64,000 bases of DNA. Origin: a virus. Taxonomy: Duplodnaviria > Caudoviricetes. A program made the translations under genes and the position numbers. The notes under the pieces were generated by a model that saw only the letters and a program-made list of their open reading frames with translations, made no database searches and was not told the DNA's origin. Each line of letters opens with the position of its first letter. Positions within the stretch are counted from its first letter, which is position 1. The DNA is taken from the IMG/VR virus record IMGVR_UViG_3300042154_002208. One strand, given 5' to 3'. Positions 1,055 to 57,120 of the stretch are shown here, in pieces.

Positions 1055-1143
1055 GGAGAGTGGGCAGGATGGTAATGCAGCAGATTGCTAATCTGTCATC
1101 GGCTTATACCGGTGAGTGGGTTCGATTCCCACACTCTCCGCCA
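1055..1143 (+). tRNA. tRNA-Ser (GCT)
   Basis: gcaga-tt-GCT-aa-tctgt arm, long variable arm, GGAGAGT/ACTCTCC stem, CCA. Confidence 0.95.
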
Positions 1144-1710
1144 TTACATATCGGGCAAGCTAATTAGCCCATATTCGTAGTCTTTTAATATTTCGATAAC
1201 AACATCGCAGACTTCTAGTCTTCTTTTTAATTCTAGATTCTCCTGTTTGCGAATTTCCACATGCTTTTCTAGGAACTGCAATATGATATTCTCATCCGCA
1301 GTCTTAATAGAAAGACGTTCAATAACCCTACTGAGTTTTTGCAAATGATTATTGCAACTATCTATATTTTGCATCACCCCATTTTTGACAGCTATGACTT
1401 CGTTAGTCATTAGTACAATTAAATTATCATGTTCTGGATTAAAGTTTGGAACAATACTAAATAGCATTTGAGCAATACGTTCAAGCGCTTCACCTCTGGT
1501 GCCACGAGATTCTAAAATATTTCCTGTTTTATCATATTCTTTTCTACGAATAAAATCGCTTAGAATTTCATATGCAAGTTTTATGCGTTTGAATACTTCT
1601 TCATCTCCTCCTTTGTCAGGATGATGAAATTGCGCAAGTGTCCTATACCGTTGTCTTATGTCTTCGGTAGATGCATTTTTTGAAACGCCAAGTTCTTCGT
1701 ATGGATTCAT
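1144..1710 (-). CDS. DnaJ (J-domain) protein with coiled-coil C-terminus
   Basis: MNPYEELGV...YRTLAQFHHPDKGG..F..IKLAYEILSD J-domain with HPD motif; start set at ATG 1710 rather than 1743. Confidence 0.85.
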   Translation of the reverse strand: MNPYEELGVSKNASTEDIRQRYRTLAQFHHPDKGGDEEVFKRIKLAYEILSDFIRRKEYDKTGNILESRGTRGEALERIAQMLFSIVPNFNPEHDNLIVLMTNEVIAVKNGVMQNIDSCNNHLQKLSRVIERLSIKTADENIILQFLEKHVEIRKQENLELKRRLEVCDVVIEILKDYEYGLISLPDM

Positions 1711-1783
1711 AATAGATAAAATAGTTTTTATATTTATCGGCAAAAATAAAGTTTGAAAAATTTAAATAACCCCTTATGGCCTG

Positions 1784-1791
1784 TATAAATA
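1784..1791 (+). promoter_or_regulatory. T4-type late promoter
   Basis: TATAAATA 22 nt upstream of ORF 1814. Confidence 0.65.
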
Positions 1792-1813
1792 TAATTGACA
1801 ACGGGACTTAGTT

Positions 1814-2245
1814 ATGATATATAAACCACAAAATTTAGATGATCCGATTCTTCGAGTAATCGAAGACGACCCCGTCCGCCCTGAGATTCCCGTCGCTTTT
1901 CGAATCACCGAAAATAGGGAAGTTCTCATACTCCTCAAAGATGAAAAACCGCAAGCAGTAGTATGTGTTGCCTATATGGACAGCATCCCGACAACCTGCG
2001 AGGAACTTTTCTTCAAACCCGCTGAACCAGATACCGTCATATTCTACACAATATGGAGTTATACTCCAGGTGCAGGTCGCGAACTTATCTTTAAAGCCAG
2101 AGACCATATAACAAGTACTCGTCCAAGTATAAAAAGATTTGTTACACTAAGCCCACCTACTGAAATGGCAAAACGATTCCATTTGAAAAATGGTGCAACA
2201 GAGTTTAGAAAGAATTTGGATACCGTAAATTACGAATATGCTTGA
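1814..2245 (+). CDS. hypothetical protein, possible GNAT/malonyl-CoA-decarboxylase-like fold
   Basis: VIFYTIWS..PGAGRELI...RPSIKRFVTLSP resembles the MCD catalytic-domain pattern (IFYSIS..G...G..LI....P....F.TLSP). Confidence 0.55.
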   Translation: MIYKPQNLDDPILRVIEDDPVRPEIPVAFRITENREVLILLKDEKPQAVVCVAYMDSIPTTCEELFFKPAEPDTVIFYTIWSYTPGAGRELIFKARDHITSTRPSIKRFVTLSPPTEMAKRFHLKNGATEFRKNLDTVNYEYA

Positions 2246-2270
2246 CATATAACACGTATTCTGTTATAAT
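2242..2270 (+). promoter_or_regulatory. sigma70-type early promoter
   Basis: TTGACA (2242-2247), 17 nt, TG-extended TATAAT (2265-2270). Confidence 0.9.
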
Positions 2271-2289
2271 ATATTTTTAAGGTGACAAT

Positions 2290-2586
2290 ATGAATGAACT
2301 TAACAAAGATCAAGCCGCTATTCTTCAAATTTTACAAGAAGAATGCGCAGAAGTAATTCAAGCAACATCGAAAGTATTTCGATTCGGATTGTTTGATACA
2401 CATCCAAATACCCCAAGCAAAACAAATACAAACCATCTTGAAGAAGAATTGGGCGATGTTCTCGCAATGATTGAATTGCTAGATTCGCACAAAGTTATTT
2501 CTTATAGTAATGTAATTCAGTTTAAACAAAGAAAATTCGATAAGCTGCGTACTTGGTCGGAAATAGATGTAGACTACCGAGGATAA
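2290..2586 (+). CDS. mazG: MazG-like nucleotide pyrophosphohydrolase
   Basis: LQEECAEVIQA...LEEELGDVLA (EExxE...EExGD) all-alpha NTP-PPase motifs. Confidence 0.8.
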   Translation: MNELNKDQAAILQILQEECAEVIQATSKVFRFGLFDTHPNTPSKTNTNHLEEELGDVLAMIELLDSHKVISYSNVIQFKQRKFDKLRTWSEIDVDYRG

Positions 2587-2592
2587 CCAAAC

Positions 2593-2624
2593 GCCTGAGT
2601 GGTGAAATAGGTAGACACAAAGAC
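2593..2624 (+). pseudogene. orphan 5' half of a tRNA-Leu
   Basis: GCCTGAGTGGTGAAATAGGTAGACACAAAGAC matches the bacterial tRNA-Leu acceptor/D-arm/start of the anticodon stem, then breaks off; no 3' half nearby. Confidence 0.75.
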
Positions 2625-2645
2625 ACACCTTAACTTTCCGTTTAT

Positions 2646-2653
2646 TATAAATA
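2646..2653 (+). promoter_or_regulatory. T4-type late promoter for the HNH gene
   Basis: TATAAATA followed by an AAGGAG SD and ATG 2671. Confidence 0.75.
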
Positions 2654-2670
2654 ATAATAAAGGAGAGTAT

Positions 2671-3138
2671 ATGATAGATGTACAAGAGTTTATAAAAGAA
2701 TCTCGAGAAGTTCGCAGATCGCATTTAGATTTAACTGAAGAATGTTGTGAACGAGGTGGAAATTCTACAAATCATAAAGGTGTTCTTGCAGAATATTTAG
2801 ATACAACTATACCATCGGGAAGAATTCTTTTATGTCATGCGTGCAATAATGGTAAATGTAGTAATCCTAAACATTTATATTGGGGCACTGATTATGATAA
2901 TATCATAATTGATGGTAAAGAATTTGGTACTCACATTTCTCCCTGGGAAAGACGAGTTGAAAAATATGGGTATGAAAAAGCTTGTGCTATGAATAGTAAA
3001 GTTGGTAATACAAATGGATCTGGCAACAAAGGTAAACCTAAGTCAGACGAACATAAAAGAAATATTGCATTAAATCGAAAAGGTGGGAAACCTAAAGGTT
3101 GGAAAAAGAACAAGGCGCCTGTAACCGAATTGGTATAG
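2671..3138 (+). mobile_element. HNH homing endonuclease with C-terminal NUMOD3-like motif
   Basis: LCHACNNGKCSNPKHLYWGTDYDN (HNH_3-type core) and GKPKSDEHKRNIA; the last 24 nt overlap tRNA-Leu. Confidence 0.85.
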
Positions 3139-3191
3139 GTATCGGACTTAAAATCCGAGTTTTGTGGGTTCGAGTCCCACCTGGCGCACCA
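3115..3191 (+). tRNA. tRNA-Leu (TAA) with short variable loop
   Basis: tcgga-ct-TAA-aa-tccga arm, 5-nt variable region GTTTT, GTGGG-TTCGAGT-CCCAC T-arm, A73-CCA. Confidence 0.88.
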
Positions 3192-3211
3192 TTTTTATAT
3201 TAAAGAAAATT

Positions 3212-3691
3212 ATGTCAATTACATTAAAAAACTTAGAAAGTGCCTTAGCCGGCGAATCTATGGCTCATATTAAATATCGTTACTTTGCACGTATTGCTCG
3301 TGACGAAGGGTTTGAAGATATTGCACAACATTTTGAGCATACTGCAGATCAAGAAATTAAACACGCATGGGGTCATTTGGATTTGCTAGTAGGCACACCA
3401 ACTACCAAAGAGTGTTTGCAACTAGCGATTATGGGTGAAACATACGAGTTCACTAAAATGTATCCTACATTCAAAGCGCAAGCTGAGCAAGAAGGTAATG
3501 CATTTGCCGCAAAAGAGATTGACCATCAGATTTCAGAATCACAAGAGCACGCTGCTCAATTTATGGAAATTATGCAAAAAGCTGAGAAGAGATTTACAGC
3601 ATTGGCAAAGGTTGAAGAACGTCATGCAAAAGCATATGAAGATTTGTTAAATAGTCTTGAATTTAAACAAGCCCTATTGGGAGGCAAATAA
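3212..3691 (+). CDS. rubrerythrin
   Basis: NLESALAGES...YFARIARDEGFEDIA..FEHTADQEIKHA...GETYE...ESQEHA di-iron motifs; start at ATG 3212, downstream of the tRNA. Confidence 0.9.
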   Translation: MSITLKNLESALAGESMAHIKYRYFARIARDEGFEDIAQHFEHTADQEIKHAWGHLDLLVGTPTTKECLQLAIMGETYEFTKMYPTFKAQAEQEGNAFAAKEIDHQISESQEHAAQFMEIMQKAEKRFTALAKVEERHAKAYEDLLNSLEFKQALLGGK

Positions 3692-3692
3692 T

Positions 3693-3827
3693 ATGAGTGA
3701 AACACACGTATGCGTAGTTTGTGGTCACGAACACGATGAAACAATCGAAGGTAAATGGAATGATTTGCCTGCAGACTTTACCTGCCCAGAGTGTGGTGTA
3801 GGCAAAGAAGATTACGAAGTAATTTAA
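3693..3827 (+). CDS. rubredoxin (44 aa, absent from the ORF track)
   Basis: Manual translation MSETHVCVVCGHEHDETIEGKWNDLPADFTCPECGVGKEDYEVI: CxxCG...W..LP..F.CPxCG. Confidence 0.92.
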   Translation: MSETHVCVVCGHEHDETIEGKWNDLPADFTCPECGVGKEDYEVI

Positions 3828-3833
3828 AAAGTT

Positions 3834-3910
<77 letters not shown>

Positions 3911-3916
3911 TTTTAT

Positions 3917-4312
3917 ATGATTAATATTCTTGTCAACGGCACATTCGATATTGTTCACAGAGGACATATTGAATTACTTAATTATGCTAGAGGTTGTGGT
4001 CAACAACTTATAGTCTGTATTGATTCGGATAGACGAGTTAAAGAATTAAAAGGTGATAGTAGACCTATTAATAATCAAGATGATAGAAAACATCTGTTAC
4101 AAAATTTAAGAGCAGTTAATGCTGTTCATATATTTGATTCAGCTGAAGAATTAGAAATGCTTTGTAAACAGTATTCGCCTATAATGGTTAAGGGTAGTGA
4201 TTATAAAGATAAGCCTATTGTGGGAAGTCAATATTGTAAAGAGATTAGATTTGTGGATTTGGTAAATGGATATTCAACAACAAAAACAATTCAAAATATT
4301 ATTACTCGGTGA
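3917..4312 (+). CDS. rfaE2: heptose-1-phosphate adenylyltransferase (RfaE/HldE domain II)
   Basis: NGTFDIVHRGH, DSDRRVKELKGDSRPIN, VKGSDY, YSTTK motifs. Confidence 0.9.
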   Translation: MINILVNGTFDIVHRGHIELLNYARGCGQQLIVCIDSDRRVKELKGDSRPINNQDDRKHLLQNLRAVNAVHIFDSAEELEMLCKQYSPIMVKGSDYKDKPIVGSQYCKEIRFVDLVNGYSTTKTIQNIITR

Positions 4313-5018
4313 TAATTGTATTGATGTTTATCAGTATGGTGCAGTAGATCGTATCAGTCCTGAAGCACCTGTGCCTGTGTTCAAATTTTCTCACGAAGAA
4401 AAACGAGCAGGCATGGCGGGCAATGTTAAGAATAATCTAATTTCACTTGGTGCAGATGTTACATTCCTACACGGAGAAACTTCTACAAAAACTAGATTGG
4501 TTGACCTTAAAAGCAAACAACATATTGTTAGAATTGATAATGATGTTTTATCTGATGCATTTGTTTTTGATACAAGTATTCCAAAATTATATGACGCAAT
4601 AGTGATTTCCGATTATAATAAGGGAACAATTAGTTATGAGATGGTCGAAGAATTAATTGCAGACTTTAAAGGTCCAGTTTTTATTGATACAAAGAAAACG
4701 GATCTTAAAAGATTTGAAGGTGCAATCGTTAAAATTAATAGTTTAGAAAATAGTTTGGCCAAGACTTTACCTACAGAGTTAATTGTAACTATGGGTAGAT
4801 ATGGGGCACAATATAAAGATCAACAATATTCCGCACCGCACACCGAGGTGTTTGATGTTTGCGGTGCTGGAGATACATTTCTTTCAGCGTTGGTTCTTGA
4901 ATTCTTAAAGACAAACAATATGGAAAAGGCAATTGAGATTGCCAACATTGCAGCTAGTATTACAGTAAAGCATATCGGAGTATATGCACCGACATGGGAA
5001 GAAATAAATGAGGCTTGA
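4266..5018 (+). CDS. rfaE1: heptose-7-phosphate kinase (RfaE/HldE domain I, PfkB family)
   Basis: GDNCID.Y.YG.VDRISPEAPVPV, AGMAGNV, ISDYNKG, DVCGAGDTF. Confidence 0.9.
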   Translation: MDIQQQKQFKILLLGDNCIDVYQYGAVDRISPEAPVPVFKFSHEEKRAGMAGNVKNNLISLGADVTFLHGETSTKTRLVDLKSKQHIVRIDNDVLSDAFVFDTSIPKLYDAIVISDYNKGTISYEMVEELIADFKGPVFIDTKKTDLKRFEGAIVKINSLENSLAKTLPTELIVTMGRYGAQYKDQQYSAPHTEVFDVCGAGDTFLSALVLEFLKTNNMEKAIEIANIAASITVKHIGVYAPTWEEINEA

Positions 5019-5364
5019 GGGGTTTGTTAAAAAAGGTTGGGGTCACGAATTAATCTGGGCTACTAACGATAAGTATTGCGGCAAGTTGATGAAGTTCAAC
5101 AAAGGTGCAAAATTTAGTATGCACTTTCATTCTGAAAAAGATGAATCATGGTATGTACTTGACGGGTTATTCTTTGTTAAATGGATTGATACCAAAACAG
5201 CCAAAGAACAAATTAAGTATCTTAAGCAAGGCGATACTTGGCACAATCCCCCATGCTTACCTCATCAATTGGTTTGTCAGGAAGAAGGTACTATCATTGA
5301 AGTTAGTACACCGGATTCGGTAGAAGATAATTATAGAGTTGCACCTGGAGATAGTCAGGCATGA
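5008..5364 (+). CDS. cupin-fold protein (sugar isomerase-like)
   Basis: KGWGHE..., SMHFHSEKDESWYV...PHQL cupin metal motifs. Confidence 0.75.
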   Translation: MRLEGFVKKGWGHELIWATNDKYCGKLMKFNKGAKFSMHFHSEKDESWYVLDGLFFVKWIDTKTAKEQIKYLKQGDTWHNPPCLPHQLVCQEEGTIIEVSTPDSVEDNYRVAPGDSQA

Positions 5365-5669
5365 AGTACATTGTAGATATAGATGGAACAATCTGTTCGG
5401 TTGTTCTTAATGATGATAAGAGTGTGAATTATGATAAAACACAACCACATAAAGATAGAATTGAAAAAATTAATAAGTTATTTGATGAAGGACATGAAAT
5501 AACTTATTGGACAGCTAGAGGTTCTGCTTCTGGAGTTGATAGATCAGAATTAACTAAAAAACAGATGACAGAATGGGGAGCAAAATACCATAAGCTAGTA
5601 TTTTATAAACCCGTTTATGATATTTGGATTGATGATAAAGCTGTAAACAGCGAGGTATATTTCAAATGA
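5361..5669 (+). CDS. HAD-superfamily phosphatase
   Basis: DIDGTIC motif I, YWTARG motif II, KP..D.WIDDK motifs III/IV. Confidence 0.8.
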   Translation: MKYIVDIDGTICSVVLNDDKSVNYDKTQPHKDRIEKINKLFDEGHEITYWTARGSASGVDRSELTKKQMTEWGAKYHKLVFYKPVYDIWIDDKAVNSEVYFK

Positions 5670-8613: not shown

Positions 8614-9963
8614 ATGCAGGCAAGACTTTCATTCAAAGCGTATAGGGCGCTTGTCGAATCTCACGATTTCTCAAATCTAACACCCTATCACCAATATAAA
8701 ACAGAAGATGGACACGATGTGCATGTGCATGTCTTTAGAGACGGTGATCATAAAACAGCAATTTTCCATAACAATACATTAGGTGCAATTACAAAGATTG
8801 TGTCTTTTCCTCACTCTTCTAATCTAAGCAAAGAAGAATTAGTCCATGCAGGAAAAGAAGTAAAGCATGATAATATTATGGAAGCGGCCGCGCCATCATT
8901 AGATGCGGATACCGCAGGCAAAGTAGCTGAAGTTGCTCTGGCAAAAGAGATGATCAACCATAAACACAAGCAAGCAGGCACATTTGGTGCTGCCGAACAT
9001 AAAAAAGAATTAAAGCCATACAACGATGAGATGATTCAATTGTCTAGCGGCAAAGATGCAGATCAAATTGCCATTAGAGAAGCTCACGGCAAAGCAATGG
9101 CAGCAGGAGTTATTAAACATATCGACGAACATCATCCTGGCGCAACAGTTACAGATGTGGGTAGAACTGCTAAACCTGGAGATATTGCTAGATTTACAAA
9201 AGGTGTTCATACTGACGGACAAGAGAATCCATCAGATGTTACTTTAAAATTAAATCACCCCGATGGAGCTGAAACATATATGGGAGTGTCCGCAAAGTCA
9301 ACGGGCAAATCTTCTGGCAATATTACTGCAAAAAATCCAGGTGTTGCGGGACAAGATGAATTTTTATCAAGTGGTCCGGCAACAAGAAAATCTAGAGCAA
9401 ATGAAATTGCTCAAGAAGGTAGAGCAGCAATTCTCAAAAAATATAAATTAGAAGGTCTGCCAGATAAGTCTACTAAAGGCGATTCAAGAAAAGCTAGAGT
9501 TACATCAGTTAATCCTGAAACAGGAAAACCCGAAATTAATGAACTCGGCAAAAAGATGAATGTAGAGTTTAAAAAGAATAATGAAGAAACTGCACGCGAA
9601 TTGCAAATACAATTAGGACACCTTGCATCATTGGGCCCTAAAGGTCACGCACATATTGGAAAATGGTTGCATAGCAATCTAGTATCTTCCGAAGGTATGC
9701 CATGGATCAAGGCAACAGGGCACGGTAAGGAAATGAATAAGGTTCATGCTGTTGTTAAGCCTGGTAGCGATTCTCCGTTAAATGCAGTATTAACAGATAA
9801 GAAGACCAGATATGCGGTTCATCGTTCCACATCTGCAGTAACAGTACACAAAGAAGAAAAAGATGGGACACATATTCCAATCGTTAGAATTGGGGCAAAA
9901 CCCAAATCACACGGGGCATATTCAAGCCAAGTATATAACTTCACACCATCGAGTAATTTCTAA
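8614..9963 (+). CDS. putative head-packaged protein with PD-(D/E)xK-like nuclease motif
   Basis: N-terminal LSFKAYRALVE; GKVAEVAL...NPSDVTLK...MGVSAKS. Confidence 0.5.
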   Translation: MQARLSFKAYRALVESHDFSNLTPYHQYKTEDGHDVHVHVFRDGDHKTAIFHNNTLGAITKIVSFPHSSNLSKEELVHAGKEVKHDNIMEAAAPSLDADTAGKVAEVALAKEMINHKHKQAGTFGAAEHKKELKPYNDEMIQLSSGKDADQIAIREAHGKAMAAGVIKHIDEHHPGATVTDVGRTAKPGDIARFTKGVHTDGQENPSDVTLKLNHPDGAETYMGVSAKSTGKSSGNITAKNPGVAGQDEFLSSGPATRKSRANEIAQEGRAAILKKYKLEGLPDKSTKGDSRKARVTSVNPETGKPEINELGKKMNVEFKKNNEETARELQIQLGHLASLGPKGHAHIGKWLHSNLVSSEGMPWIKATGHGKEMNKVHAVVKPGSDSPLNAVLTDKKTRYAVHRSTSAVTVHKEEKDGTHIPIVRIGAKPKSHGAYSSQVYNFTPSSNF

Positions 9964-11132
9964 TGTTATCATTTGGCACATACTTAGTTGAATCTGCGAA
10001 CGAGGAAAAGTTAACACACCTCGAACACGCAGAAGATCACCCTATTAATGCAGGGGAAGAAGGCTTTAAGCACGTATTCAATACTTTAAACGAAACACAC
10101 AATGCTTTGTTAGGCAAAAGATCAAAGGCATCTTTATCCACAAAGTATGATGGCTCGCCTAGTATTGTGTTTGGCACTCACCCGGAGTTTCCTAGATTCT
10201 TTGTTGCATCCAAATCTGCATTCAACAAGAATCCCAAATTAAATTTTACAGAATCTGATATTGAAAAGAATCATGGTCACGCACCCGGACTTGTTGCCAA
10301 ATTAAAAGCAGCTCTATACCACTTGCCTAAAGTAACTCCCAACGAAGGGGTGTTTCAAGGCGACGTAATGTATAATAAGTCGGATAAAGATGTGTCAGAC
10401 TCTGGCGGGTCATATCATTTTAAGCCTAACACAATTACATACTCTGCTAAAAAGGGCAGTGAAGAAGGGCAAAAGATCAAAGATGCTAAATTTGGTGTGG
10501 CAGTTCATACAGCATATCGTGGAGATACGCTTGAGAACATGAAGGCTGAGTATAACACCGACACTTCTAAATTTAATTCACATCCAGATGTGCACGTAGT
10601 TGATACTAAGTTTGATCCTAAGACTGCACATTATACCCCTGATGCTCAACAAGAATATCATTCTCATATGGCAAAGGCAGTTGAAGCTCACAATGATTTA
10701 CCCAATTACGATCATCTCGAAGGTCACGACGTATCATTAAAGACATATATTAATTCAACTGTGAGAGACACCTCAATACCATCGGTAGAGGGTTATAAAA
10801 AACATCTACAAGGTTCTCTGCAGAAAGACATTGACAAAGTTAAAACCGATAAAGCCAAACAAAACAAAGCTGCGGATATGAATGAAAAGTTAGATCATAT
10901 TGATACCAATAAAGATTCATTTAAAAAGACTTTGGATATTCATAAACATCTGCAAAATGCAAAAAATGTTTTGGTTAATACCATGTCAAATGCAGATTAT
11001 AAATTTCATCATAGTATTGATGGTAAAAAAGTTAAACCCGAAGGTCATGTTGCAGTATTAAACAACAGACCCACAAAACTAGTAGATAGAGCAGAATTTA
11101 GTGCAGCTAACTTTGCAGCGAGACCAAGATGA
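9963..11132 (+). CDS. conserved T4-like phage protein with ligase-type KxDG motif (probably DUF6267-like)
   Basis: HLEHAED, STKYDGSPSIVFG, FFVASKS, VFQGDVMY, FKPNTITY; N-terminal MLSFGTYLVE. Confidence 0.6.
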   Translation: MLSFGTYLVESANEEKLTHLEHAEDHPINAGEEGFKHVFNTLNETHNALLGKRSKASLSTKYDGSPSIVFGTHPEFPRFFVASKSAFNKNPKLNFTESDIEKNHGHAPGLVAKLKAALYHLPKVTPNEGVFQGDVMYNKSDKDVSDSGGSYHFKPNTITYSAKKGSEEGQKIKDAKFGVAVHTAYRGDTLENMKAEYNTDTSKFNSHPDVHVVDTKFDPKTAHYTPDAQQEYHSHMAKAVEAHNDLPNYDHLEGHDVSLKTYINSTVRDTSIPSVEGYKKHLQGSLQKDIDKVKTDKAKQNKAADMNEKLDHIDTNKDSFKKTLDIHKHLQNAKNVLVNTMSNADYKFHHSIDGKKVKPEGHVAVLNNRPTKLVDRAEFSAANFAARPR

Positions 11133-31523: not shown

Positions 31524-32663
31524 ATGATCACATTTCAAAATCTAACATTTGGTGGAACATTTTCATACGAGACACCTGATTTGCCCCCGCCTAGCTCTTA
31601 TCTTTGGGCTTGGGGGGCTACATCGGGCGCCGCAATTGGAGTTGGTGATACTATAACTAGATCTAGTCCAGTACAGGTTGGATCATTGGGCACATGGTCA
31701 AAAATACGCGCAAGTGGCGTAAGCCAGTCCTTTGCAATTAAAACAGATGGCACAATGTGGGCGTGGGGATCGAATTCGTACGGTAGTTTGGGATTAGGCG
31801 ATGCTACGGTTAGATCTAGTCCAGTACAAATTGGTGCATTAACAACATGGGCAACTGTTGATGGTGCCAGCGGGTTTGCATTTGCCGGCGCTATTAAAAC
31901 CGATGGCACTTTATGGACCTGGGGATATAACGCATATAGCGCAGGCCAATTGGGATTGGGCAATACTACAAATTATTCTAGCCCAAAACAAGTTGGCGCT
32001 TTAACCAACTGGTTAAACATATCTGCTTCTTCTTACGGATGTATGGCAATTAAAACAGATGGTACATTATGGGGATGGGGCCATAATTCTTATGGTAGAT
32101 TGGGGCTAGGTGATACTACAGCTAGAAATAGTCCGGTACAAGTAGGTGCGGGAACTACTTGGGCAACCGTAACTGCAAAGGCTGCGACGGCGGCGGCAAT
32201 TAAAACTGATGGTACTCTATGGACCTGGGGATACGGAAATAATGGGCAATTGGGTTTAGGTACTACTACAGCTAGATCTAGTCCAGTACAAGTCGGTTCT
32301 TTAACCAATTGGTCAGTGATTCACATTTTAACAAATGGCACTATGCTTGCGGTTAAAACAGATGGAACTTTGTGGGGTTGGGGCAATAGCGGCAATGGTC
32401 AACTGGGTTTAGGTGCCGCCCCTGTGTATTATTCAAGTCCGAAGCAAATAGGTGCGCTAACAACATGGAGAAACGTTAGTGGCGCGGCCGCTAATAGTTC
32501 TGCAATTAAAACCGATGGTACTGTATGGACCTGGGGAAATAATGCTCAAGGACAACTTGGCCTAAATAATAAGACAAGTTATTCAAGTCCAAAACAAGTT
32601 GGCGCATTAACTACTTGGACAGCCATTAGTAGTGCGAGTCACACATTATTAATTTCAAGTTAA
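31524..32663 (+). CDS. RCC1/BLIP-II-like 7-bladed beta-propeller, copy 1
   Basis: 7 x (AIKTDGTLWxWGxNxxGxLGLG...SSPxQVG) after a short N-terminal peptide and PPP. Confidence 0.9.
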   Translation: MITFQNLTFGGTFSYETPDLPPPSSYLWAWGATSGAAIGVGDTITRSSPVQVGSLGTWSKIRASGVSQSFAIKTDGTMWAWGSNSYGSLGLGDATVRSSPVQIGALTTWATVDGASGFAFAGAIKTDGTLWTWGYNAYSAGQLGLGNTTNYSSPKQVGALTNWLNISASSYGCMAIKTDGTLWGWGHNSYGRLGLGDTTARNSPVQVGAGTTWATVTAKAATAAAIKTDGTLWTWGYGNNGQLGLGTTTARSSPVQVGSLTNWSVIHILTNGTMLAVKTDGTLWGWGNSGNGQLGLGAAPVYYSSPKQIGALTTWRNVSGAAANSSAIKTDGTVWTWGNNAQGQLGLNNKTSYSSPKQVGALTTWTAISSASHTLLISS

Positions 32664-32670
32664 AACAAAA

Positions 32671-33786
32671 ATGGCAATTACATTCAATGGTATCTCAATC
32701 GGATCAGGGGTAGCCCTAACAATTACTCCGCCTCCTCCCCCTCCTCCTCCGCAATACTTGTGGGCATGGGGAAGTGGTGCAGATGGCAGGTTAGGCCTTG
32801 GCAGCACTACAAACAGATCTAGTCCGGTACAGGTTGGTGATCTAACCACTTGGTCAAGTGTTGCTGCTCACGAAAAGCACAGCCTGGCAATCAAAACAGA
32901 TGGCACGCTATGGGCATGGGGCCGCAATGGCACTGGCGAATTAGGCGATAATACTGGTGTAAATAAATCTAGTCCAGTACAGATTGGCGCATTAACCACC
33001 TGGTTAAATATTGCTGCGGGCAGATACACCAGCTTTGCAATTAAAACCGATGGTACATTGTGGGCCTGGGGCTACAATGCTTATGGCCGATTGGGCCTGG
33101 GCAACCTCACCTATAGATACAGTCCAGTACAAGTAGGAGGCGATTCCAATTGGTCAAGTGTTGCTAGTGGCGTCAATCACACTCATGCAATTAAAACTAC
33201 TGGTACATTATGGGCCTGGGGATACAATGGATATGGCACACTGGGTAATAATAGCAACACTTCGCTAAGCAATCCAGTACAAATTGGCGCATTAACCAAT
33301 TGGTCAAAGATTTCCGTTGCCTTTGTTCACACCCTAGCCGTCAAAACAGATGGCACGCTATGGGCATGGGGCCGCAATACAATTTATGGCACTGACTATG
33401 GCATATTAGGGTTAGGTGACACCAGCGCACCAAACAGTCCAGTACAAGTTGGTGCATTGACAACTTGGTCAAGTGTCAGTGCTGGTTTCTACCACAGCCT
33501 AGCCGTCAAAACAGATGGTACATTATGGTCTTGGGGCGGTAATAGTGGTCTATTGGGGCTCGGTGATACCTCACATAGATCTAGTCCAACTCAAGTTAGC
33601 GCAGGAACTACTTGGTCAAAAATTGATGCAGCTGACAATGCTAGTCTGGCTATAAAAACTGATGGCACATTGTGGGGTACTCTTGGAGCAGTTACACCTA
33701 CTTCAAACAGTCTAGTACAAATTGGGTCGTCAACCAATTGGTCAAATATTGCTGGCGGCAGTTCACACTACCTGGCAATTGGTTAA
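32671..33786 (+). CDS. RCC1/BLIP-II-like propeller, copy 2
   Basis: Same repeat; long poly-Pro linker. Confidence 0.9.
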   Translation: MAITFNGISIGSGVALTITPPPPPPPPQYLWAWGSGADGRLGLGSTTNRSSPVQVGDLTTWSSVAAHEKHSLAIKTDGTLWAWGRNGTGELGDNTGVNKSSPVQIGALTTWLNIAAGRYTSFAIKTDGTLWAWGYNAYGRLGLGNLTYRYSPVQVGGDSNWSSVASGVNHTHAIKTTGTLWAWGYNGYGTLGNNSNTSLSNPVQIGALTNWSKISVAFVHTLAVKTDGTLWAWGRNTIYGTDYGILGLGDTSAPNSPVQVGALTTWSSVSAGFYHSLAVKTDGTLWSWGGNSGLLGLGDTSHRSSPTQVSAGTTWSKIDAADNASLAIKTDGTLWGTLGAVTPTSNSLVQIGSSTNWSNIAGGSSHYLAIG

Positions 33787-47932: not shown

Positions 47933-49063
47933 ATGGCCCTGACCATTTCCGGTTTTACTATGACCGGTAATCTTACCGCGGTACATATTCCACCCCCTCC
48001 TCCATCCTATTACCTTTGGTCATGGGGTCGCAACAATTATGGTTTATTGGGGGTAGGAGATACTATAGATAGATCTAGTCCAGTACAGGTTGGTGCTCTT
48101 GGTAATTGGTCAACTGTTTCTGGCGGAGTTTATCATAATCTATCCATTAAAACAGATGGTACCTTATGGTCATGGGGTAGAAATTATTTAGGCTTTTTAG
48201 GTCTTGGCGAGACCACCGCTAGATCTAGTCCAGTGCAAGTAGGTGCATTAACTAATTGGTCAAAAATTGCTACAGGTGGAGGCCTACACAGTTTAGCTAT
48301 AACAACCGATGGGTATTTATGGACTTGGGGTTACAATTATTATGGACAATTAGGATTAGGTAATACTACAGGATATTCAAGTCCAAAACAGATTGGCGCA
48401 TTAACTAATTGGTCAAGTATTTCTGCAGGCGGTAATCACAGTTTAGCTATCAAAACAGATGGTACATTATGGGTATGGGGGTATAACCAGTCAGGTCGAT
48501 TGGGCCTTGGCGATACTAATAATAGATCTAGCCCAGTACAAATTGGGGCTCTAACCACTTGGTCAAGTATTTCTGCAAGCAACGGCGGCTGTGCCGCTAT
48601 CAAAACAGATGGTACTTTGTGGGTTTGGGGCGGTAATTATTTTGGGCAGTTAGGATTAGGCAATACCACATATTATTCAAGTCCCAAACAAGTTGGCGCA
48701 TTAACTACTTGGTCAAGTATTTCTGCAAGCGGCGGCGGCTGTGCCGCTATCAAAACAGATGGTACTTTGTGGGTTTGGGGTAGAAATTTTGGGGCAGGTT
48801 CTTTAGGGTTAGGTGATACTATATCTAGATCTAGTCCAGTACAAATGGGGGCATTAACCAATTGGGCAAGTATTTCTGCAGGAGAACTTTTTTGTGTGTC
48901 CATTAAAACAGATGGTACACTATGGTCATGGGGACACAATGCGTATGGCCGGGTTGGAGATGGTACAACTGTTCTTAAATCTAGCCCAGTACAAATTGGA
49001 TCATCAACTACCTGGTCAAGTATTTCTGCAGGTAGCGCTACTCCATTAGCTATTAAATCTTAA
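47933..49063 (+). CDS. RCC1/BLIP-II-like propeller, copy 4
   Basis: MALTISG...PPPPP + 7 blades. Confidence 0.9.
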   Translation: MALTISGFTMTGNLTAVHIPPPPPSYYLWSWGRNNYGLLGVGDTIDRSSPVQVGALGNWSTVSGGVYHNLSIKTDGTLWSWGRNYLGFLGLGETTARSSPVQVGALTNWSKIATGGGLHSLAITTDGYLWTWGYNYYGQLGLGNTTGYSSPKQIGALTNWSSISAGGNHSLAIKTDGTLWVWGYNQSGRLGLGDTNNRSSPVQIGALTTWSSISASNGGCAAIKTDGTLWVWGGNYFGQLGLGNTTYYSSPKQVGALTTWSSISASGGGCAAIKTDGTLWVWGRNFGAGSLGLGDTISRSSPVQMGALTNWASISAGELFCVSIKTDGTLWSWGHNAYGRVGDGTTVLKSSPVQIGSSTTWSSISAGSATPLAIKS

Positions 49064-49082
49064 TAAAAATTAAAAGAACAAA

Positions 49083-50213
49083 ATGGCACTAACAATTTCA
49101 GGCGTAAGAATAAACGGAGCATTGTCTGCGGTGCATATTCCACCTCCTCCGCCACCTGCGTATTACCTTTGGGCTTGGGGTGCTAATGATTACGGTGAGT
49201 TAGGCCAAGGCGATTATAATATTAATAGATCTAGTCCAGTACAGATTGGTTCATTGACCAATTGGTTAAGTATTTCAGCCGGTGGTTATCACAGCGCGGC
49301 CACCTTCCCAAACGGGACTATATGGACATGGGGCAGTAATTATGTCGGCCAATTAGGGTTAGGAAATACTACAAATAGATCTAGTCCGGTACAAGTTGGT
49401 GCCTTAACCACATGGTCAAGTATTTCTACTGGCCAATACCACAACCTGGCCGTTAAAACAGATGGTACCATGTGGACATGGGGTGGAAATAGTTATGGCA
49501 AATTGGGGTTAGGCGATACCGCAAATAGATCTAGTCCAGTACAAATTGGCGCTTTAACTACTTGGTCATCTGTGAGTGCAGGAGGAAATATCAGTGCGGC
49601 AATTAAAACAGATGGTACATTGTGGGCGTGGGGTAGAAATTATCACGGGTCATTGGGCCAAGGTAATACTACAGATAGATCTAGTCCAGTACAAGTTGGT
49701 TCTCTAACTAATTGGTTGTCTGTTGCTGCTGCATATGTTTGTTGTCACGCAATTAAAACAGATGGTACCTTATGGTCATGGGGTAGAAATTATGCTGGCG
49801 TCTTGGGTTTAGGAGGTACTACAAATATTTCCAGTCCAGCACAAGTTGGTGCATTAACAAATTGGTCAACTGTATCTAACAGAGAACACTATTGTGCAGC
49901 AATTAAAACAGATGGTACATTATGGTCATGGGGCAGGGGTTCTCAAGGCAAATTAGGGTTAGGCGACATTACCAATAGATCCAGCCCGACTCAGGTTGGT
50001 GCATTAACTACTTGGTTAAGTGTTTCTGCAGGATATTCTCACAGCGCTGCTATTAAAACTGATGGTACTCTGTGGTCGTGGGGTAGCGGCGGCCAAGGTA
50101 GATTGGGCCTAGGTGATACTACATCTAGATCTAGTCCAACTCAAGTTGGAGGATTAACTACTTGGTTATATATTGCTGCAGGAAGTACTTTCACCGCCGC
50201 TATTAGTAACTAA
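49083..50213 (+). CDS. RCC1/BLIP-II-like propeller, copy 5
   Basis: MALTISG...PPPPPP + 7 blades. Confidence 0.9.
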   Translation: MALTISGVRINGALSAVHIPPPPPPAYYLWAWGANDYGELGQGDYNINRSSPVQIGSLTNWLSISAGGYHSAATFPNGTIWTWGSNYVGQLGLGNTTNRSSPVQVGALTTWSSISTGQYHNLAVKTDGTMWTWGGNSYGKLGLGDTANRSSPVQIGALTTWSSVSAGGNISAAIKTDGTLWAWGRNYHGSLGQGNTTDRSSPVQVGSLTNWLSVAAAYVCCHAIKTDGTLWSWGRNYAGVLGLGGTTNISSPAQVGALTNWSTVSNREHYCAAIKTDGTLWSWGRGSQGKLGLGDITNRSSPTQVGALTTWLSVSAGYSHSAAIKTDGTLWSWGSGGQGRLGLGDTTSRSSPTQVGGLTTWLYIAAGSTFTAAISN

Positions 50214-50229
50214 TTAAAAGAAGAACAAA

Positions 50230-51351
50230 ATGGATCTAATCGGAATAACTATATTTGGCGGAGTCAACATTCAGCCTCCGCCTCCGCCACCTCCTGTGCC
50301 CACATACTATCTATGGTCTTGGGGCAGAAATTATAAAGGTGTAATGGGTCTAGGTGATACTACCAATAGATCCAGTCCCAATCAAGTAGGCTCAATGAGT
50401 GATTGGTTATCTTTGGCTGCAGGAAGATACCATATGACAGCAATTAAAATCGATAACACCTTATGGTCTTTTGGTCAAAATTCAAGCGGTCAATTGGGGC
50501 TAGGCGATACCACCGACAGATCAAGTCCAACTCAAATCGGAGCATTGGCAACCTGGGCGTCATTAAGTTGCGGGGATCAGCACGCCATAGCAATTAAAAC
50601 AGATGGTACCTTGTGGGCATGGGGATACAATGGTATCGGCGGCTTGGGGCTAGGAAATTCTACAAGTTATTCAAGCCCAATGCAAGTTGGCGCGCTAACA
50701 ACTTGGTCAAGTATTGGTACCGGCGGATACAATTCGTTTGCTGTTAAAACCGATGGTACATTATGGACATGGGGATATAATGCACAAGGACAACTGGGTC
50801 TAGGCAATACCGCAGCTAGATCTAGTCCAGTACAGATTGGTGCATTAACTACTTGGTCAAAAGTTGATGGTGGAGATAAGCACACCATGGCAATTAAAAC
50901 AGATGGTACCTTGTGGGCATGGGGTGCTAGCAATCAGGGCCAAACGGGAACGGGAAGTTCTTCGTCTAGCCCAGTACAAGTTGGCGCATTGACAACCTGG
51001 GCAACATTAGGTATAACATATTTGTCATCCTCGGCAATTAAAACCGATGGTACATTATGGATGTGGGGTTCCAACGAGTCGGGACATTTAGGCCTAGGCA
51101 ATACTACCAATCAAGGTAGTCCGGTACAAGTGGGCGCGCTGACTACTTGGTCAAAAGTTAGTTTAGGACAATTCCATACTATGGCAGTTAGAACCGACGG
51201 CACATTATGGACATGGGGATTCAATGTTCAGGGTCAACTTGGTATTGGTAACACCACATATTTTTCCAGTCCAAAACAAGTTGGTGCATTAACTACCTGG
51301 TTGAATGTTACTGCAGGATATAGACATTCAACTGCAATTACATCGCAATAA
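50230..51351 (+). CDS. RCC1/BLIP-II-like propeller, copy 6
   Basis: MDLIGITIFGG...PPPPPPP + 7 blades. Confidence 0.9.
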   Translation: MDLIGITIFGGVNIQPPPPPPPVPTYYLWSWGRNYKGVMGLGDTTNRSSPNQVGSMSDWLSLAAGRYHMTAIKIDNTLWSFGQNSSGQLGLGDTTDRSSPTQIGALATWASLSCGDQHAIAIKTDGTLWAWGYNGIGGLGLGNSTSYSSPMQVGALTTWSSIGTGGYNSFAVKTDGTLWTWGYNAQGQLGLGNTAARSSPVQIGALTTWSKVDGGDKHTMAIKTDGTLWAWGASNQGQTGTGSSSSSPVQVGALTTWATLGITYLSSSAIKTDGTLWMWGSNESGHLGLGNTTNQGSPVQVGALTTWSKVSLGQFHTMAVRTDGTLWTWGFNVQGQLGIGNTTYFSSPKQVGALTTWLNVTAGYRHSTAITSQ

Positions 51352-51380
51352 CCCGTTATACTAATTAAAAGAACAAAAAA

Positions 51381-52514: not shown

Positions 52515-52530
52515 TAAAAAGAAAAACAAA

Positions 52531-53652: not shown

Positions 53653-53666
53653 AAGAAGAACAAAAA

Positions 53667-54803: not shown

Positions 54804-54820
54804 TTAAAAAGAAAAACAAA

Positions 54821-55951: not shown

Positions 55952-55977
55952 AAAAAAAATAAAAAAGAAGAACAAAA

Positions 55978-57105: not shown

Positions 57106-57120
57106 AAAGAAAAACAAAAA

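What the first reader, a model, noticed from the sequence alone, without database searches (positions are those of the whole stretch)
2593..3191. HNH endonuclease that disrupted a tRNA-Leu and carries its own overlapping replacement tRNA
Seen: a 32-nt tRNA-Leu 5' half stops just before the anticodon loop and is followed by a late promoter, an SD and an HNH-NUMOD3 ORF. The last 8 codons of that ORF (stop TAG in the D-loop) are the first 24 nt of a different, complete tRNA-Leu(UAA). The new 3' acceptor strand pairs with the new 5' end, not the orphan, so the whole tRNA was replaced. Known: T4 SegB homes in the tRNA region. Inference: intron-less homing into a tRNA anticodon, with the immune allele physically fused to the nuclease gene.
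Basis: partly seen in the sequence, partly recalled or inferred. Interest (0 to 1): 0.75.

Follow-up and report, generated by a model that had tools for sequence, protein, structure and literature searches.

The report
Nuclease cassette with spare tRNA-Leu gene
A selfish DNA-cutting-enzyme gene has landed inside this phage's leucine tRNA gene, leaving its first 28 bases stranded. It brought a complete substitute tRNA fused to its own end, and the same layout recurs in many uncultured phages, yet I found no paper describing it.

Summary

- **In the window:** bases 2593-2620 are the first 28 nt of a class II tRNA-Leu(UAA). Eleven related viral contigs without the nuclease gene carry that tRNA intact (85 nt) at the same locus.
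- **What follows the stub:** a TATAAATA/SD leader, a 155-aa His-Me ("HNH") nuclease ORF (2671-3138), and a complete but unrelated 77-nt short-arm tRNA-Leu(UAA) (3115-3191). Its first 24 nt are the ORF's last 8 codons.
- **Not an intron:** there is no ribozyme, no 3' exon, and no intact target in the window.
- **General pattern:** in 20 of 21 distinct loci the ORF ends within -38 to +11 nt of a tRNA-Leu(UAA) start. Eleven have a clear 5' stub broken at the D-arm/anticodon-stem boundary. A sister clade does the same at tRNA-Gln.
- **A mobile unit:** the same nuclease plus 77-nt tRNA, with the same 24-nt overlap, sits in an unrelated context behind a different stub.
- **Recent transfer:** a second metagenome contig has 36 differences to the left of the cassette and none across it.

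Cleavage, immunity of the carried tRNA and homing itself are inferred, not shown. This scan has noted the same architecture before on other DNA. The closest published analogue I found is T4 SegB.

The parts
2290..2586 (+). MazG-like pyrophosphohydrolase gene. This is the conserved left flank shared with HEG-less relatives and the likely left homology arm.
   Evidence: Pfam MazG E=1.5e-6; PHROG 4856 E=1.3e-23. It is 98-99% identical to L004/L007/L009/L014 up to the stub.
2593..2620 (+). 28-nt 5' stub of the resident class II tRNA-Leu(UAA): acceptor 5' strand, D-arm and positions 26-27.
   Evidence: Identical to nt 1-28 of the intact 85-nt tRNA-Leu(taa) in 11 related IMG/VR contigs at the same locus. 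No 3' partner exists in the window.
2621..2670 (+). Cassette leader: spacer, T4-late-promoter-like TATAAATA (2646-2653) and Shine-Dalgarno AAGGAGAG (2660-2667).
   Evidence: Sequence read. It is 97% identical to the leader of cassette L026. TATAAATA lies 12-32 nt upstream of the ATG in 15 of 21 homologous loci. All 9 window copies are on the coding strand.
2671..3138 (+). Free-standing His-Me finger (HNH-type, I-PpoI-like His-Cys box) endonuclease gene, 155 aa, with a NUMOD3-like basic C-terminal tail.
   Evidence: Invariant C55 H56 C58 N60 C63 P66 H68 W71 G72 T73 N77 in 21 homologues. These align to I-PpoI H98/C100/C105/H110/N119. PHROG endonuclease families match at 9e-8 and 4e-6. VIA top hit is I-PpoI at Z 4.0, with I-HmuI at Z 3.5. 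dN/dS is 0.04-0.16.
3115..3191 (+). Complete 77-nt tRNA-Leu(UAA) with a 5-nt variable loop (class I shape), A73 and an encoded CCA. Its first 24 nt are the last 8 codons plus stop of the nuclease ORF.
   Evidence: ARAGORN; Rfam RF00005 64.9 bits. It matches the tRNA following the homologous nuclease in L087/L088 at 76 of 77 positions. Overall identity to the T5-like tRNA-Leu is 91%.
3212..3691 (+). Rubrerythrin gene. It is cargo linked to the cassette and absent from the nearest HEG-less relatives.
   Evidence: Pfam Rubrerythrin E=8.9e-17. It is absent from G001/L004/L006/L007/L009 and only 86% identical to the nearest B-type contigs. There are no differences from L082.
3657..3827 (+). Rubredoxin-like gene, the second cargo gene of the inserted block.
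   Evidence: ORF with two CxxC pairs. The equivalent gene beside the 95%-identical nuclease P0001 carries Pfam Rubredoxin. It is absent from A-type relatives.
3834..3910 (+). tRNA-Met(CAT). This is the right-hand boundary where similarity to the nearest HEG-less relatives resumes, and the likely right homology arm.
   Evidence: ARAGORN. The G001 match resumes at 3834. Identity is 99% to L006/L007.

Best explanation
This is a free-standing homing-endonuclease cassette specialised on phage tRNA-Leu(UAA) genes. The unit consists of a late-type promoter, a 155-aa His-Me finger nuclease gene and a complete tRNA-Leu(UAA) gene that abuts or overlaps the ORF's 3' end.

Proposed mechanism:
1. In a mixed infection, the nuclease cuts the intact class II tRNA-Leu allele of a cassette-free phage near the D-arm/anticodon-stem boundary.
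2. The break is repaired from the cassette-bearing genome.
3. The recipient keeps only tRNA positions 1-27/28 as a stub and gains the nuclease gene.
4. It also gains the donor's tRNA-Leu(UAA), whose D-arm and anticodon stem differ from the cut allele. That tRNA is presumably uncuttable and keeps UUA/UUG decoding intact.
5. Flanking DNA is co-converted. In this window that includes rubrerythrin and rubredoxin.

Shown here: the insertion polymorphism, the identity of the stub, the replacement of the whole tRNA, the recurrence of the architecture, the mobility of the unit, and purifying selection on the nuclease.

Inferred: nuclease activity, its target, the resistance of the carried tRNA, and homing as the transfer route.
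For: (a) Empty site. Eleven related IMG/VR contigs carry the intact 85-nt tRNA-Leu at the same locus. Five of them (L004, L006, L007, L009, L014; L014 is the G001 record) have flanks 95-99% identical to the window. In these the 1.2 kb block is replaced by the tRNA's 3' 57 nt plus a 16-nt spacer.

(b) Second empty/filled pair in another lineage. L070 is intact while L068/L081 have a stub plus nuclease in homologous flanks.

(c) Recurrence. In 20 of 21 distinct homologous loci a tRNA-Leu(taa) starts -38 to +11 nt from the ORF stop, in many different tRNA-cluster contexts. Nine loci have the stub core with at most 1 mismatch, two more have variant stubs and four have decayed ones. The stubs show 7 different acceptor strands, rising to 8 with L087/L088, and all break within 2-3 nt of the same position.

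(d) Target versus partner. All stubs share the ATAGGTAGAC-type D-arm. The linked complete tRNAs differ from the 19-nt stub core at 3-10 positions, and the window's differs at 10.

(e) The unit moves. L087/L088 carry an 83%-identical nuclease with the same C-terminus, the same 24-nt overlap and a 76/77-identical 77-nt tRNA. They sit in an unrelated context behind a different stub.

(f) Recent transfer. L082 differs from the window at 36 sites, all left of 2561, with none in 2561-3927. At the 1.2% rate of the adjacent genes about 17 differences would be expected.

(g) Stubs are younger than the nuclease lineages. L027, L029 and L045 share a 26/26-identical stub, yet 39-55% of their amino-acid-identical codons differ.

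(h) The nuclease is maintained. dN/dS is 0.04-0.16 and the catalytic and zinc residues are invariant.

(i) A tRNA-Leu(UAA) matters to this phage. TTA plus TTG make up 69% of Leu codons.

(j) A sister clade with a different C-terminal domain shows stub, nuclease and complete tRNA at tRNA-Gln(UUG).
Against: - No biochemical evidence exists that the protein cuts DNA, or that its site is the tRNA-Leu gene.
- The nuclease assignment for the window protein alone is weak: Pfam 14.9 bits against a cut-off of 27, no significant Foldseek hit, and VIA Z of only 4.0.
- Some family members have no stub (L019 group, L034, L043, L046). L036 has no downstream tRNA-Leu.
- Cultured Straboviridae homologues have neither a stub nor a partner tRNA.
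- The contrast between partner and target D-arms has no unbiased control for general tRNA-Leu diversity.
- The partner of the distant homologue L046 retains the ATAGGTAGAC motif.
- The right junction has at most 4-6 nt of shared sequence (ACCA/GCACCA), so the first entry into a lineage needs something other than ordinary homologous repair.
Confidence: 0.8

Rival explanations
1. Passive mosaicism. tRNA clusters are recombination hot spots, and the nuclease gene is a passenger, or it cuts elsewhere or with relaxed specificity as SegB does. On this view the stub and the replacement tRNA are by-products of illegitimate recombination, not of cleavage of this tRNA gene.
For: The region is highly mosaic. 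The partner tRNA and the ORF's C-terminal end have been swapped between cassettes. Some homologues lack a stub or partner. SegB itself has relaxed specificity for many tRNA genes (PMC2330249).
Against: The association holds in 20 of 21 loci with one anticodon class. At least 8 different stubs break within 2-3 nt of the same tRNA position. A sister clade with another C-terminal domain pairs with another tRNA. Random recombination would not give this precision.
Confidence: 0.1
2. The nuclease mainly benefits the phage. It could exclude co-infecting relatives by cutting their tRNA-Leu gene, or promote amplification or exchange of tRNA genes that counter host tRNA-targeting defences. In that case the short-arm tRNA would be the selected payload. 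This overlaps with, and does not exclude, the best explanation.
For: SegB drives amplification of a tRNA-Tyr/segB unit that defeats Septu, which cuts the variable loop of a class II tRNA (PMC13096335). Here a class II tRNA-Leu is replaced by one without the long arm. The nuclease is under strong purifying selection.
Against: No tandem amplification is seen in the window. Most cassettes carry ordinary class II partners, so arm loss is not the rule. No defence context was examined.
Confidence: 0.08
3. A spliced intron or split tRNA. The stub is a 5' exon that is joined at the RNA level to a 3' exon.
For: The same tRNA-Leu(UAA) allele does carry a group I intron after U34 in other phage contigs (L074, L079, L080).
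Against: There is no intron model hit in 2400-3400 even at E up to 10. Only about 50 nt lie between the stub and the ORF. No sequence able to pair with the stub's acceptor strand exists in 64 kb. The break is at position 27/28, not 34/35. A complete tRNA with its own matched acceptor stem follows.
Confidence: 0.01
4. Assembly chimera.
For: The window comes from an uncultured source, and its own assembly is not held.
Against: An independent metagenome contig (L082) is collinear over 2837 nt including all junctions. A 95%-identical nuclease in another sample has the same gene order.
Confidence: 0.01

Closest known systems
Phage T4 SegB, a free-standing homing endonuclease in the tRNA gene cluster (PMC2330249; PMC13096335)
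   Same: It is a free-standing nuclease gene inside a phage tRNA cluster that recognises tRNA-gene sequence. It spreads itself together with neighbouring tRNA genes by intronless homing with co-conversion, and it lies adjacent to a tRNA gene it can mobilise.
   Different: SegB is GIY-YIG, while this protein is a His-Me finger. SegB recognises the T-arm motif and cuts at the 3' ends of many tRNA genes with relaxed specificity, and it sits between genes. Here one tRNA species is involved, the break is at the D-arm/anticodon-stem boundary, a 5' stub is left, and a full isoacceptor gene is fused to the ORF.
Group I intron with homing endonuclease in tRNA-Leu(UAA), as in cyanobacteria and plastids, and seen here in phage contigs L074/L079/L080
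   Same: It is a mobile element invading the same gene. The cost of disruption is neutralised so that the host keeps a working tRNA-Leu(UAA).
   Different: The intron neutralises the cost by RNA splicing and inserts after U34. The cassette has no ribozyme, inserts at 27/28, destroys the resident gene and supplies a second complete gene instead.
Mobile ORFs and free-standing HEGs that carry a replacement for the displaced part of the host gene (fungal mitochondrial mORFs). Recalled from memory and from an earlier scan note, not read here.
   Same: The invader brings its own copy of what it displaces, leaving the old piece as a pseudogene.
   Different: Those replace the 3' end of a protein gene in frame. 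Here a whole RNA gene is supplied and the leftover is the 5' part.
Integrase-mediated elements that target tRNA genes and restore them through attP-borne tRNA sequence
   Same: A tRNA gene is the landing site, and function is restored by element-borne tRNA sequence.
   Different: Those use site-specific recombination at the 3' end with an identical duplicated segment. Here there is no integrase, the leftover is a 5' stub, and the replacement is a divergent whole tRNA.
I-PpoI (His-Cys box homing endonuclease)
   Same: The catalytic and zinc motif aligns residue for residue: H98, C100, C105, H110 and N119 correspond to H56, C58, C63, H68 and N77.
   Different: Similarity covers only about 30 residues. 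I-PpoI is encoded in a nuclear rDNA intron, and the rest of the fold does not match significantly.

Membership tests
His-Me finger / HNH nucleases | Catalytic His, metal-binding Asn and zinc-binding Cys/His residues in a beta-beta-alpha motif | tested here: met
   H56, N77, C58, C63 and H68 are invariant in 21 homologues and align to I-PpoI H98, N119, C100, C105 and H110. The model has strands 53-56 and 69-72 followed by helix 74-85.
His-Me finger / HNH nucleases | Curated profile match above threshold | tested here: inconclusive
   The window protein scores 14.9 bits on PF05551 against a cut-off of 27. Across the family, PF05551 hits 21/21 (best E 8.4e-5) and HNH_3 hits 10/21. PHROG endonuclease families match at 9e-8.
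His-Me finger / HNH nucleases | Fold similarity to solved members | tested here: inconclusive
   Foldseek found nothing at E<=0.001. The VIA top hit is I-PpoI at Z 4.0 (rmsd 2.8, 61 aligned). I-HmuI scores Z 3.5, and several other HNH domains score Z 2-2.4. All are weak.
NUMOD3 DNA-binding motif | PF07460 match in the C-terminal part | tested here: inconclusive
   The window protein has no hit. Four of 21 homologues hit, with best E 1.2e-5. The motif GNKGKPKS-EHK is conserved.
Free-standing homing endonuclease gene (intronless homing) | Presence/absence polymorphism at one locus among close relatives | tested here: met
   The window and L082 carry the cassette. L004/6/7/9/14 (flanks 95-99% identical to the window) and L003/5/8/10/11/12 (B-type; left flank 79-89%) lack it. 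A second pair is L070 versus L068.
Free-standing homing endonuclease gene (intronless homing) | The empty allele is cleaved by the encoded enzyme | not testable with these tools
   This needs a cleavage assay.
Free-standing homing endonuclease gene (intronless homing) | The occupied allele lacks the target | tested here: inconclusive
   The resident allele is destroyed and no intact copy is in the window. The partner differs at 10 of 19 core positions. Resistance itself is untested.
Free-standing homing endonuclease gene (intronless homing) | Co-conversion of flanking markers | tested here: inconclusive
   A zero-difference tract of 1367 nt spans the cassette and its right flank, against 36 differences to the left. 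Rbr-Rd was imported with the cassette into an A-type backbone. This is consistent with co-conversion, but other kinds of recombination would look the same.
Group I intron in tRNA-Leu(UAA) | Ribozyme core, insertion after U34, and a 3' exon completing the tRNA | tested here: not met
   No RF00028 hit at E up to 10, whereas L074 and L079 score 52.7 and 61.1 bits. The junction is at 27/28. There is no 3' exon.
SegB / GIY-YIG Seg family | GIY-YIG catalytic domain | tested here: not met
   No GIY-YIG match appears in Pfam or PHROGs. The protein is a His-Me finger.
Bacterial-type tRNA-Leu | Cloverleaf, UAA anticodon and A73 | tested here: met
   ARAGORN; Rfam 64.9 bits with full-length alignment; A73 and CCA read from the sequence.
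Bacterial-type tRNA-Leu | Long variable arm (class II) | tested here: not met
   The variable loop is 5 nt and the tRNA 77 nt long. The displaced resident tRNA is class II at 85 nt.
Bacterial-type tRNA-Leu | Charged with leucine | not testable with these tools
   This needs an aminoacylation assay. From memory, E. coli LeuRS does not require the long arm.

The most novel reading that the evidence does not exclude
The cassette may be an autonomous tRNA-swapping homing element whose only entry requirement is a susceptible tRNA-Leu(UAA) gene. On this reading the conserved D-arm kept in the stub and the tRNA 3' end serve as portable homology arms. That would let the element jump between otherwise unrelated phages and repeatedly replace their tRNA-Leu genes. 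It would drive an arms race in which D-arm and anticodon-stem sequences, and even the tRNA class (long arm to short arm), diversify to escape cleavage. The stub, a half-site placed about 25 nt upstream of the late promoter, might also act as an operator for autorepression, as described for I-TevI.
Probability: 0.3. Interest if true: 0.8.

Novelty: new variant of a known kind. Interest (0 to 1): 0.66.

Why it matters
Homing endonucleases are thought to survive inside essential genes by hiding in self-splicing introns or inteins, or else by sitting between genes. This family shows a third solution for an RNA gene: destroy the resident copy and deliver a complete, divergent substitute fused to the nuclease gene.

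If confirmed, it would matter in three ways:
- It explains orphan tRNA fragments in phage tRNA clusters.
- It identifies a force that turns over and diversifies phage tRNA genes and drags cargo genes along. Here the cargo is rubrerythrin and rubredoxin.
- It offers about 900 natural nuclease variants, paired with their presumed target (stub) and non-target (partner) sequences, for studying how His-Me nucleases retarget.

It also shows the same phage tRNA-Leu allele invaded by both a group I intron and this cassette, which allows a direct comparison of the two strategies.

Tried and rejected
- **Own assembly:** it is not held, so I could not check for a second tRNA-Leu(UAA) elsewhere in the genome.
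- **Cultured phages:** the phage collection has no close relative of the locus. Only 9 records hold a nuclease homologue, and none has the stub/partner layout.
- **Source of the 77-nt tRNA:** an exact 43-nt pattern from it found nothing in IMG/VR. The source lineage appeared only through the protein route.
- **Structure search:** Foldseek against PDB gave no significant match. The wide VIA search gave only weak HNH-type matches.
- **Intron reading:** rejected.
- **Intact target elsewhere in the window:** none found.
- **TATAAATA count:** it is not above chance in the window as a whole (9 observed, 10.4 expected), although all 9 copies are on the coding strand. "Late promoter" therefore remains a resemblance.
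- **MFE folding:** folding the 77-nt tRNA alone does not return a cloverleaf. I rely on the covariance-model score instead.
- **Co-conversion tract:** I tried to delimit its right end against G001, but the downstream sugar-nucleotide genes are too mosaic.
- **Literature:** four full-text searches found no description of this architecture. Absence from that library is not proof of absence.
Full report
**1. What is in the window**

Reading 2300-3500 with ARAGORN and the ORF list gives this order on the + strand:
- a MazG-like gene (2290-2586; Pfam and PHROG);
- a 28-nt fragment that looks like the start of a class II tRNA-Leu (2593-2620);
- a 50-nt leader with TATAAATA (2646-2653) and AAGGAGAG (2660-2667);
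- a 155-aa ORF (2671-3138);
- a complete 77-nt tRNA-Leu(taa) at 3115-3191 (Rfam tRNA 64.9 bits);
- rubrerythrin (3212-3691), a rubredoxin-like ORF (3657-3827) and tRNA-Met (3834-3910).

The ORF and the tRNA overlap by exactly 24 nt, and the TAG stop lies in the D-loop. The tRNA has a 5-nt variable loop, A73 and an encoded CCA. Its acceptor strands pair with each other in 6 of 7 positions (U6.U67 mismatch), not with the upstream fragment.

**2. The empty site exists**

The window's own assembly is not held. The nearest viral record, G001, matches window 1802-2624 at 98% and 3834-4369 at 95%, with only about 69 nt between the two matches. That gap is the rest of an intact 85-nt class II tRNA-Leu(taa) plus a 16-nt spacer before tRNA-Met.

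A 26-nt pattern from the fragment finds 11 related IMG/VR contigs, and all carry the intact tRNA directly after MazG. They fall into two arrangements:
- **A-type:** tRNA-Leu, 16 nt, tRNA-Met.
- **B-type:** tRNA-Leu, then rubrerythrin-rubredoxin and tRNA-Met. The sequence just after the CCA is the same as in the window.

The window is identical to the intact allele through nt 28 and then diverges. The stub therefore ends at standard position 27/28, the first base of the anticodon stem.

**3. It is not an intron or an artefact**

- No intron family matches 2400-3400, even at E up to 10.
- Only 50 nt separate the stub from the ORF.
- Nothing in 64 kb resembles the missing 3' part of the old tRNA, allowing up to 3 mismatches.
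- No intact copy of the old D-arm/anticodon region remains.
- An independent metagenome contig (L082) is collinear with window 1091-3927 and includes every junction.
- A 95%-identical nuclease in another sample has the same gene order.

**4. The protein**

The window protein alone gives only a sub-threshold Pfam hit to the zinc-binding loop of His-Me homing endonucleases, plus PHROG endonuclease hits. An alignment of 21 homologues from viral contigs has these invariant positions: C55, H56, C58, N60, C63, P66, H68, W71, G72, T73 and N77. A profile of that alignment aligns these to the I-PpoI His-Cys box residues H98, C100, C105, H110 and N119.

Scanning all 21 members individually gives PF05551 in 21, HNH_3 in 10 and NUMOD3 in 4. 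The AlphaFold model (pLDDT 74.8) has a beta-beta-alpha element at the motif. Foldseek finds nothing significant. The wide structural search ranks I-PpoI first (Z 4.0) and lists I-HmuI and several other HNH domains at Z 2-3.5, which is weak support.

The gene is clearly maintained. dN/dS against seven homologues is 0.04-0.16, with synonymous sites saturated in most pairs. About 898 clusters at 90% identity match at E<=1e-5. Almost all are unnamed, and some lie on contigs up to 361 kb.

**5. The architecture is general**

The survey used the close homologues (52-90% amino-acid identity) among the 49 viral loci that encode a homologue. With the window added and identical copies removed, 21 loci remain.

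- In 20 of them a tRNA-Leu(taa) starts between 38 nt before and 11 nt after the end of the ORF, in many different tRNA-cluster contexts.
- Nine have the 19-nt D-arm core of the stub with at most 1 mismatch, ending 39-53 nt before the ATG. Two more have variant stubs and four have decayed ones.
- None of 6000 shuffled upstream windows reaches 4 mismatches or fewer.
- The stubs in these loci carry seven different acceptor strands, and an eighth appears in L087/L088. All break within 2-3 nt of the same position.
- In every case the complete downstream tRNA is a different allele with its own matched acceptor stem.

A second empty/filled pair was found in another lineage. L070 has the intact GCTCCGA-type tRNA, while L068/L081 have that stub plus the nuclease in homologous flanks. 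There, a 6-nt remnant of the old 3' end remains 13 nt after the new tRNA.

More distant homologues have a different C-terminal domain and are followed by tRNA-Gln(ttg). In L048/L049 they are preceded by the first 22 nt of a tRNA-Gln that is intact in other contigs.

Not all members fit. The L019 group and L046 sit between two complete tRNA-Leu genes without a stub. L036 lacks the downstream tRNA-Leu. The homologues in cultured Straboviridae have neither feature.

**6. The unit moves**

Through the protein search I reached ENA contigs L087/L088. They carry:
- a nuclease 83% identical to the window's, also 155 aa, ending in the same residues;
- the same 24-nt overlap;
- a 77-nt tRNA-Leu identical at 76 of 77 positions, including the U6.U67 mismatch.

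Yet the surrounding genes are unrelated and the stub is a different allele. Promoter, nuclease and short-arm tRNA have therefore entered at least two different resident tRNA-Leu genes as one unit.

The window's cassette is itself a mosaic. Its leader and the first ~130 codons are L026-like (92-100% at the 5' end). Its right flank is also L026-like; L026 likewise has rubrerythrin-rubredoxin-tRNA-Met downstream. The last ~22 codons and the tRNA are L087-like, with 97% identity over the tRNA. One simple route would be nested invasion of an L026-like cassette's partner tRNA, followed by recombination between the two nuclease genes. That route is inference.

**7. Signs of recent transfer**

- L082 differs from the window at 36 positions, all left of 2561, with none in the 1367 nt from 2561 to 3927. 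At the 1.2-1.4% divergence of the two adjacent genes, about 17 differences would be expected.
- The window's flanks are 95-99% identical to A-type cassette-free contigs (98-99% for L007), but its rubrerythrin-rubredoxin segment is only 86% identical to the nearest B-type contig. The 1.2 kb block looks imported into an A-type backbone, bounded by tRNA-Leu position 28 and the start of tRNA-Met.
- Cassettes L027, L029 and L045 share a 26/26-identical stub, while 39-55% of their amino-acid-identical codons differ. The stubs are much younger than the nuclease lineages, as expected if cassettes keep invading naive copies of a widespread resident allele. That allele was found intact in eight further contigs.

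**8. Mechanism**

The best-supported model is intronless homing.
1. The nuclease cuts the intact class II allele near the D-arm/anticodon-stem boundary.
2. Repair from a cassette-bearing genome copies the nuclease gene and its linked tRNA.
3. The resident 5' part survives only as the stub, and flanking genes are co-converted.

The linked tRNAs differ from the 19-nt stub core at 3-10 positions, and the window's differs at 10. This fits the idea that the carried allele is not a substrate, but there is no unbiased control for this contrast. Keeping a tRNA-Leu(UAA) should matter to the phage, because TTA and TTG make up 69% of Leu codons in the window's long ORFs.

The overlap implies that RNase P cleavage at 3115 would remove the ORF's stop codon from that transcript. 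This could limit nuclease expression, but it is inference, and the overlap occurs in only about half of the loci.

How the cassette first enters a lineage with unrelated flanks is unclear. The stub's conserved D-arm and the tRNA 3' end may serve as short homology arms.

**9. Comparison with what is known**

- **T4 SegB** is the closest published analogue I found. It is a free-standing homing endonuclease in the tRNA cluster that recognises a tRNA-gene motif and spreads neighbouring tRNA genes (PMC2330249). It can also amplify a tRNA-Tyr/segB unit (PMC13096335). SegB is GIY-YIG, recognises the T-arm, cuts many tRNA genes at their 3' ends and leaves no stub.
- **Group I introns in tRNA-Leu(UAA)** solve the same problem by splicing. 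The very allele that is invaded here carries such an intron after U34 in L074/L079/L080.
- **Integrase-type elements** restore tRNA 3' ends with identical duplicated sequence.

Four full-text searches found no description of a nuclease gene that breaks a tRNA gene and carries a whole substitute.

This scan's earlier notes report the same architecture on other DNA, in other phages and in CPR bacteria. I treat those as leads only. The generality stated here rests.

**10. Verdict**

I class it as a new variant of a known kind, free-standing homing endonucleases. The comparative evidence is strong, but there is no biochemical evidence.

Noticed in passing
L074:5528-5751; L079:3787-4005 (- strand); L080: The same sensitive-type tRNA-Leu(UAA) allele (GCTCCGA acceptor) is interrupted after U34 by a ~190-nt group I intron in other phage contigs. 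This is the canonical cyanobacterial/plastid position. Rfam RF00028 scores 52.7 and 61.1 bits.
   Followed up: partly
L074:7777-8239: A GOLLD RNA (Rfam RF02032, 201.8 bits) lies inside a large phage tRNA cluster, with a tRNA model hit nested within it.
   Followed up: no
window 3115-3191; L017:1996-2072: Short-arm (77-79 nt) tRNAs with Leu anticodons are common in these phage tRNA clusters. The window's tRNA is 91% identical overall to the tRNA-Leu of T5-like phages, with compensated acceptor-stem changes. Whether they are charged with leucine is unknown.
   Followed up: partly
L048/L049 (=L084/L085), L052, L053, L057: A sister clade of the nuclease with a different C-terminal domain is followed by tRNA-Gln(ttg). 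In L048 it is preceded by the first 22 nt of a tRNA-Gln that is intact in L083 and L086.
   Followed up: partly
Leaders of L018, L027, L029, L030, L031, L032, L035, L038, L042, L045, L087: Most cassette leaders carry a conserved TTTGTGTTTAG directly before TATAAATA. It is the inverted complement of the stub's end (TAGACACAAA), so a 10-bp hairpin could form across the junction. The window and L026 lack it.
   Followed up: no
window 47933-58242 (also 31524-33786): A tandem array of about ten paralogous ~375-aa genes. The two members tested (31524-32660, 47933-49060) match RCC1-repeat (regulator of chromosome condensation-like) PHROG families. Giant ORFs of 2092, 1588 and 1876 aa lie nearby.
   Followed up: no
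window 4369-5650 and 8650-9990 versus L014: The sugar-nucleotide (heptose-type) biosynthesis genes downstream of tRNA-Met are strongly mosaic against the nearest relative. Identity is 53-96% within otherwise 97-100% identical DNA.
   Followed up: no
L074 and L080, about 1150 nt upstream of the tRNA-Leu: ARAGORN reports a 75-nt tRNA with a four-base anticodon (ttac) and no assigned amino acid.
   Followed up: no
window 1144-1743 (- strand): A DnaJ-like gene on the opposite strand is the most divergent segment between the window and L082 (3.7%, against 1.2-1.4% in its neighbours).
   Followed up: no
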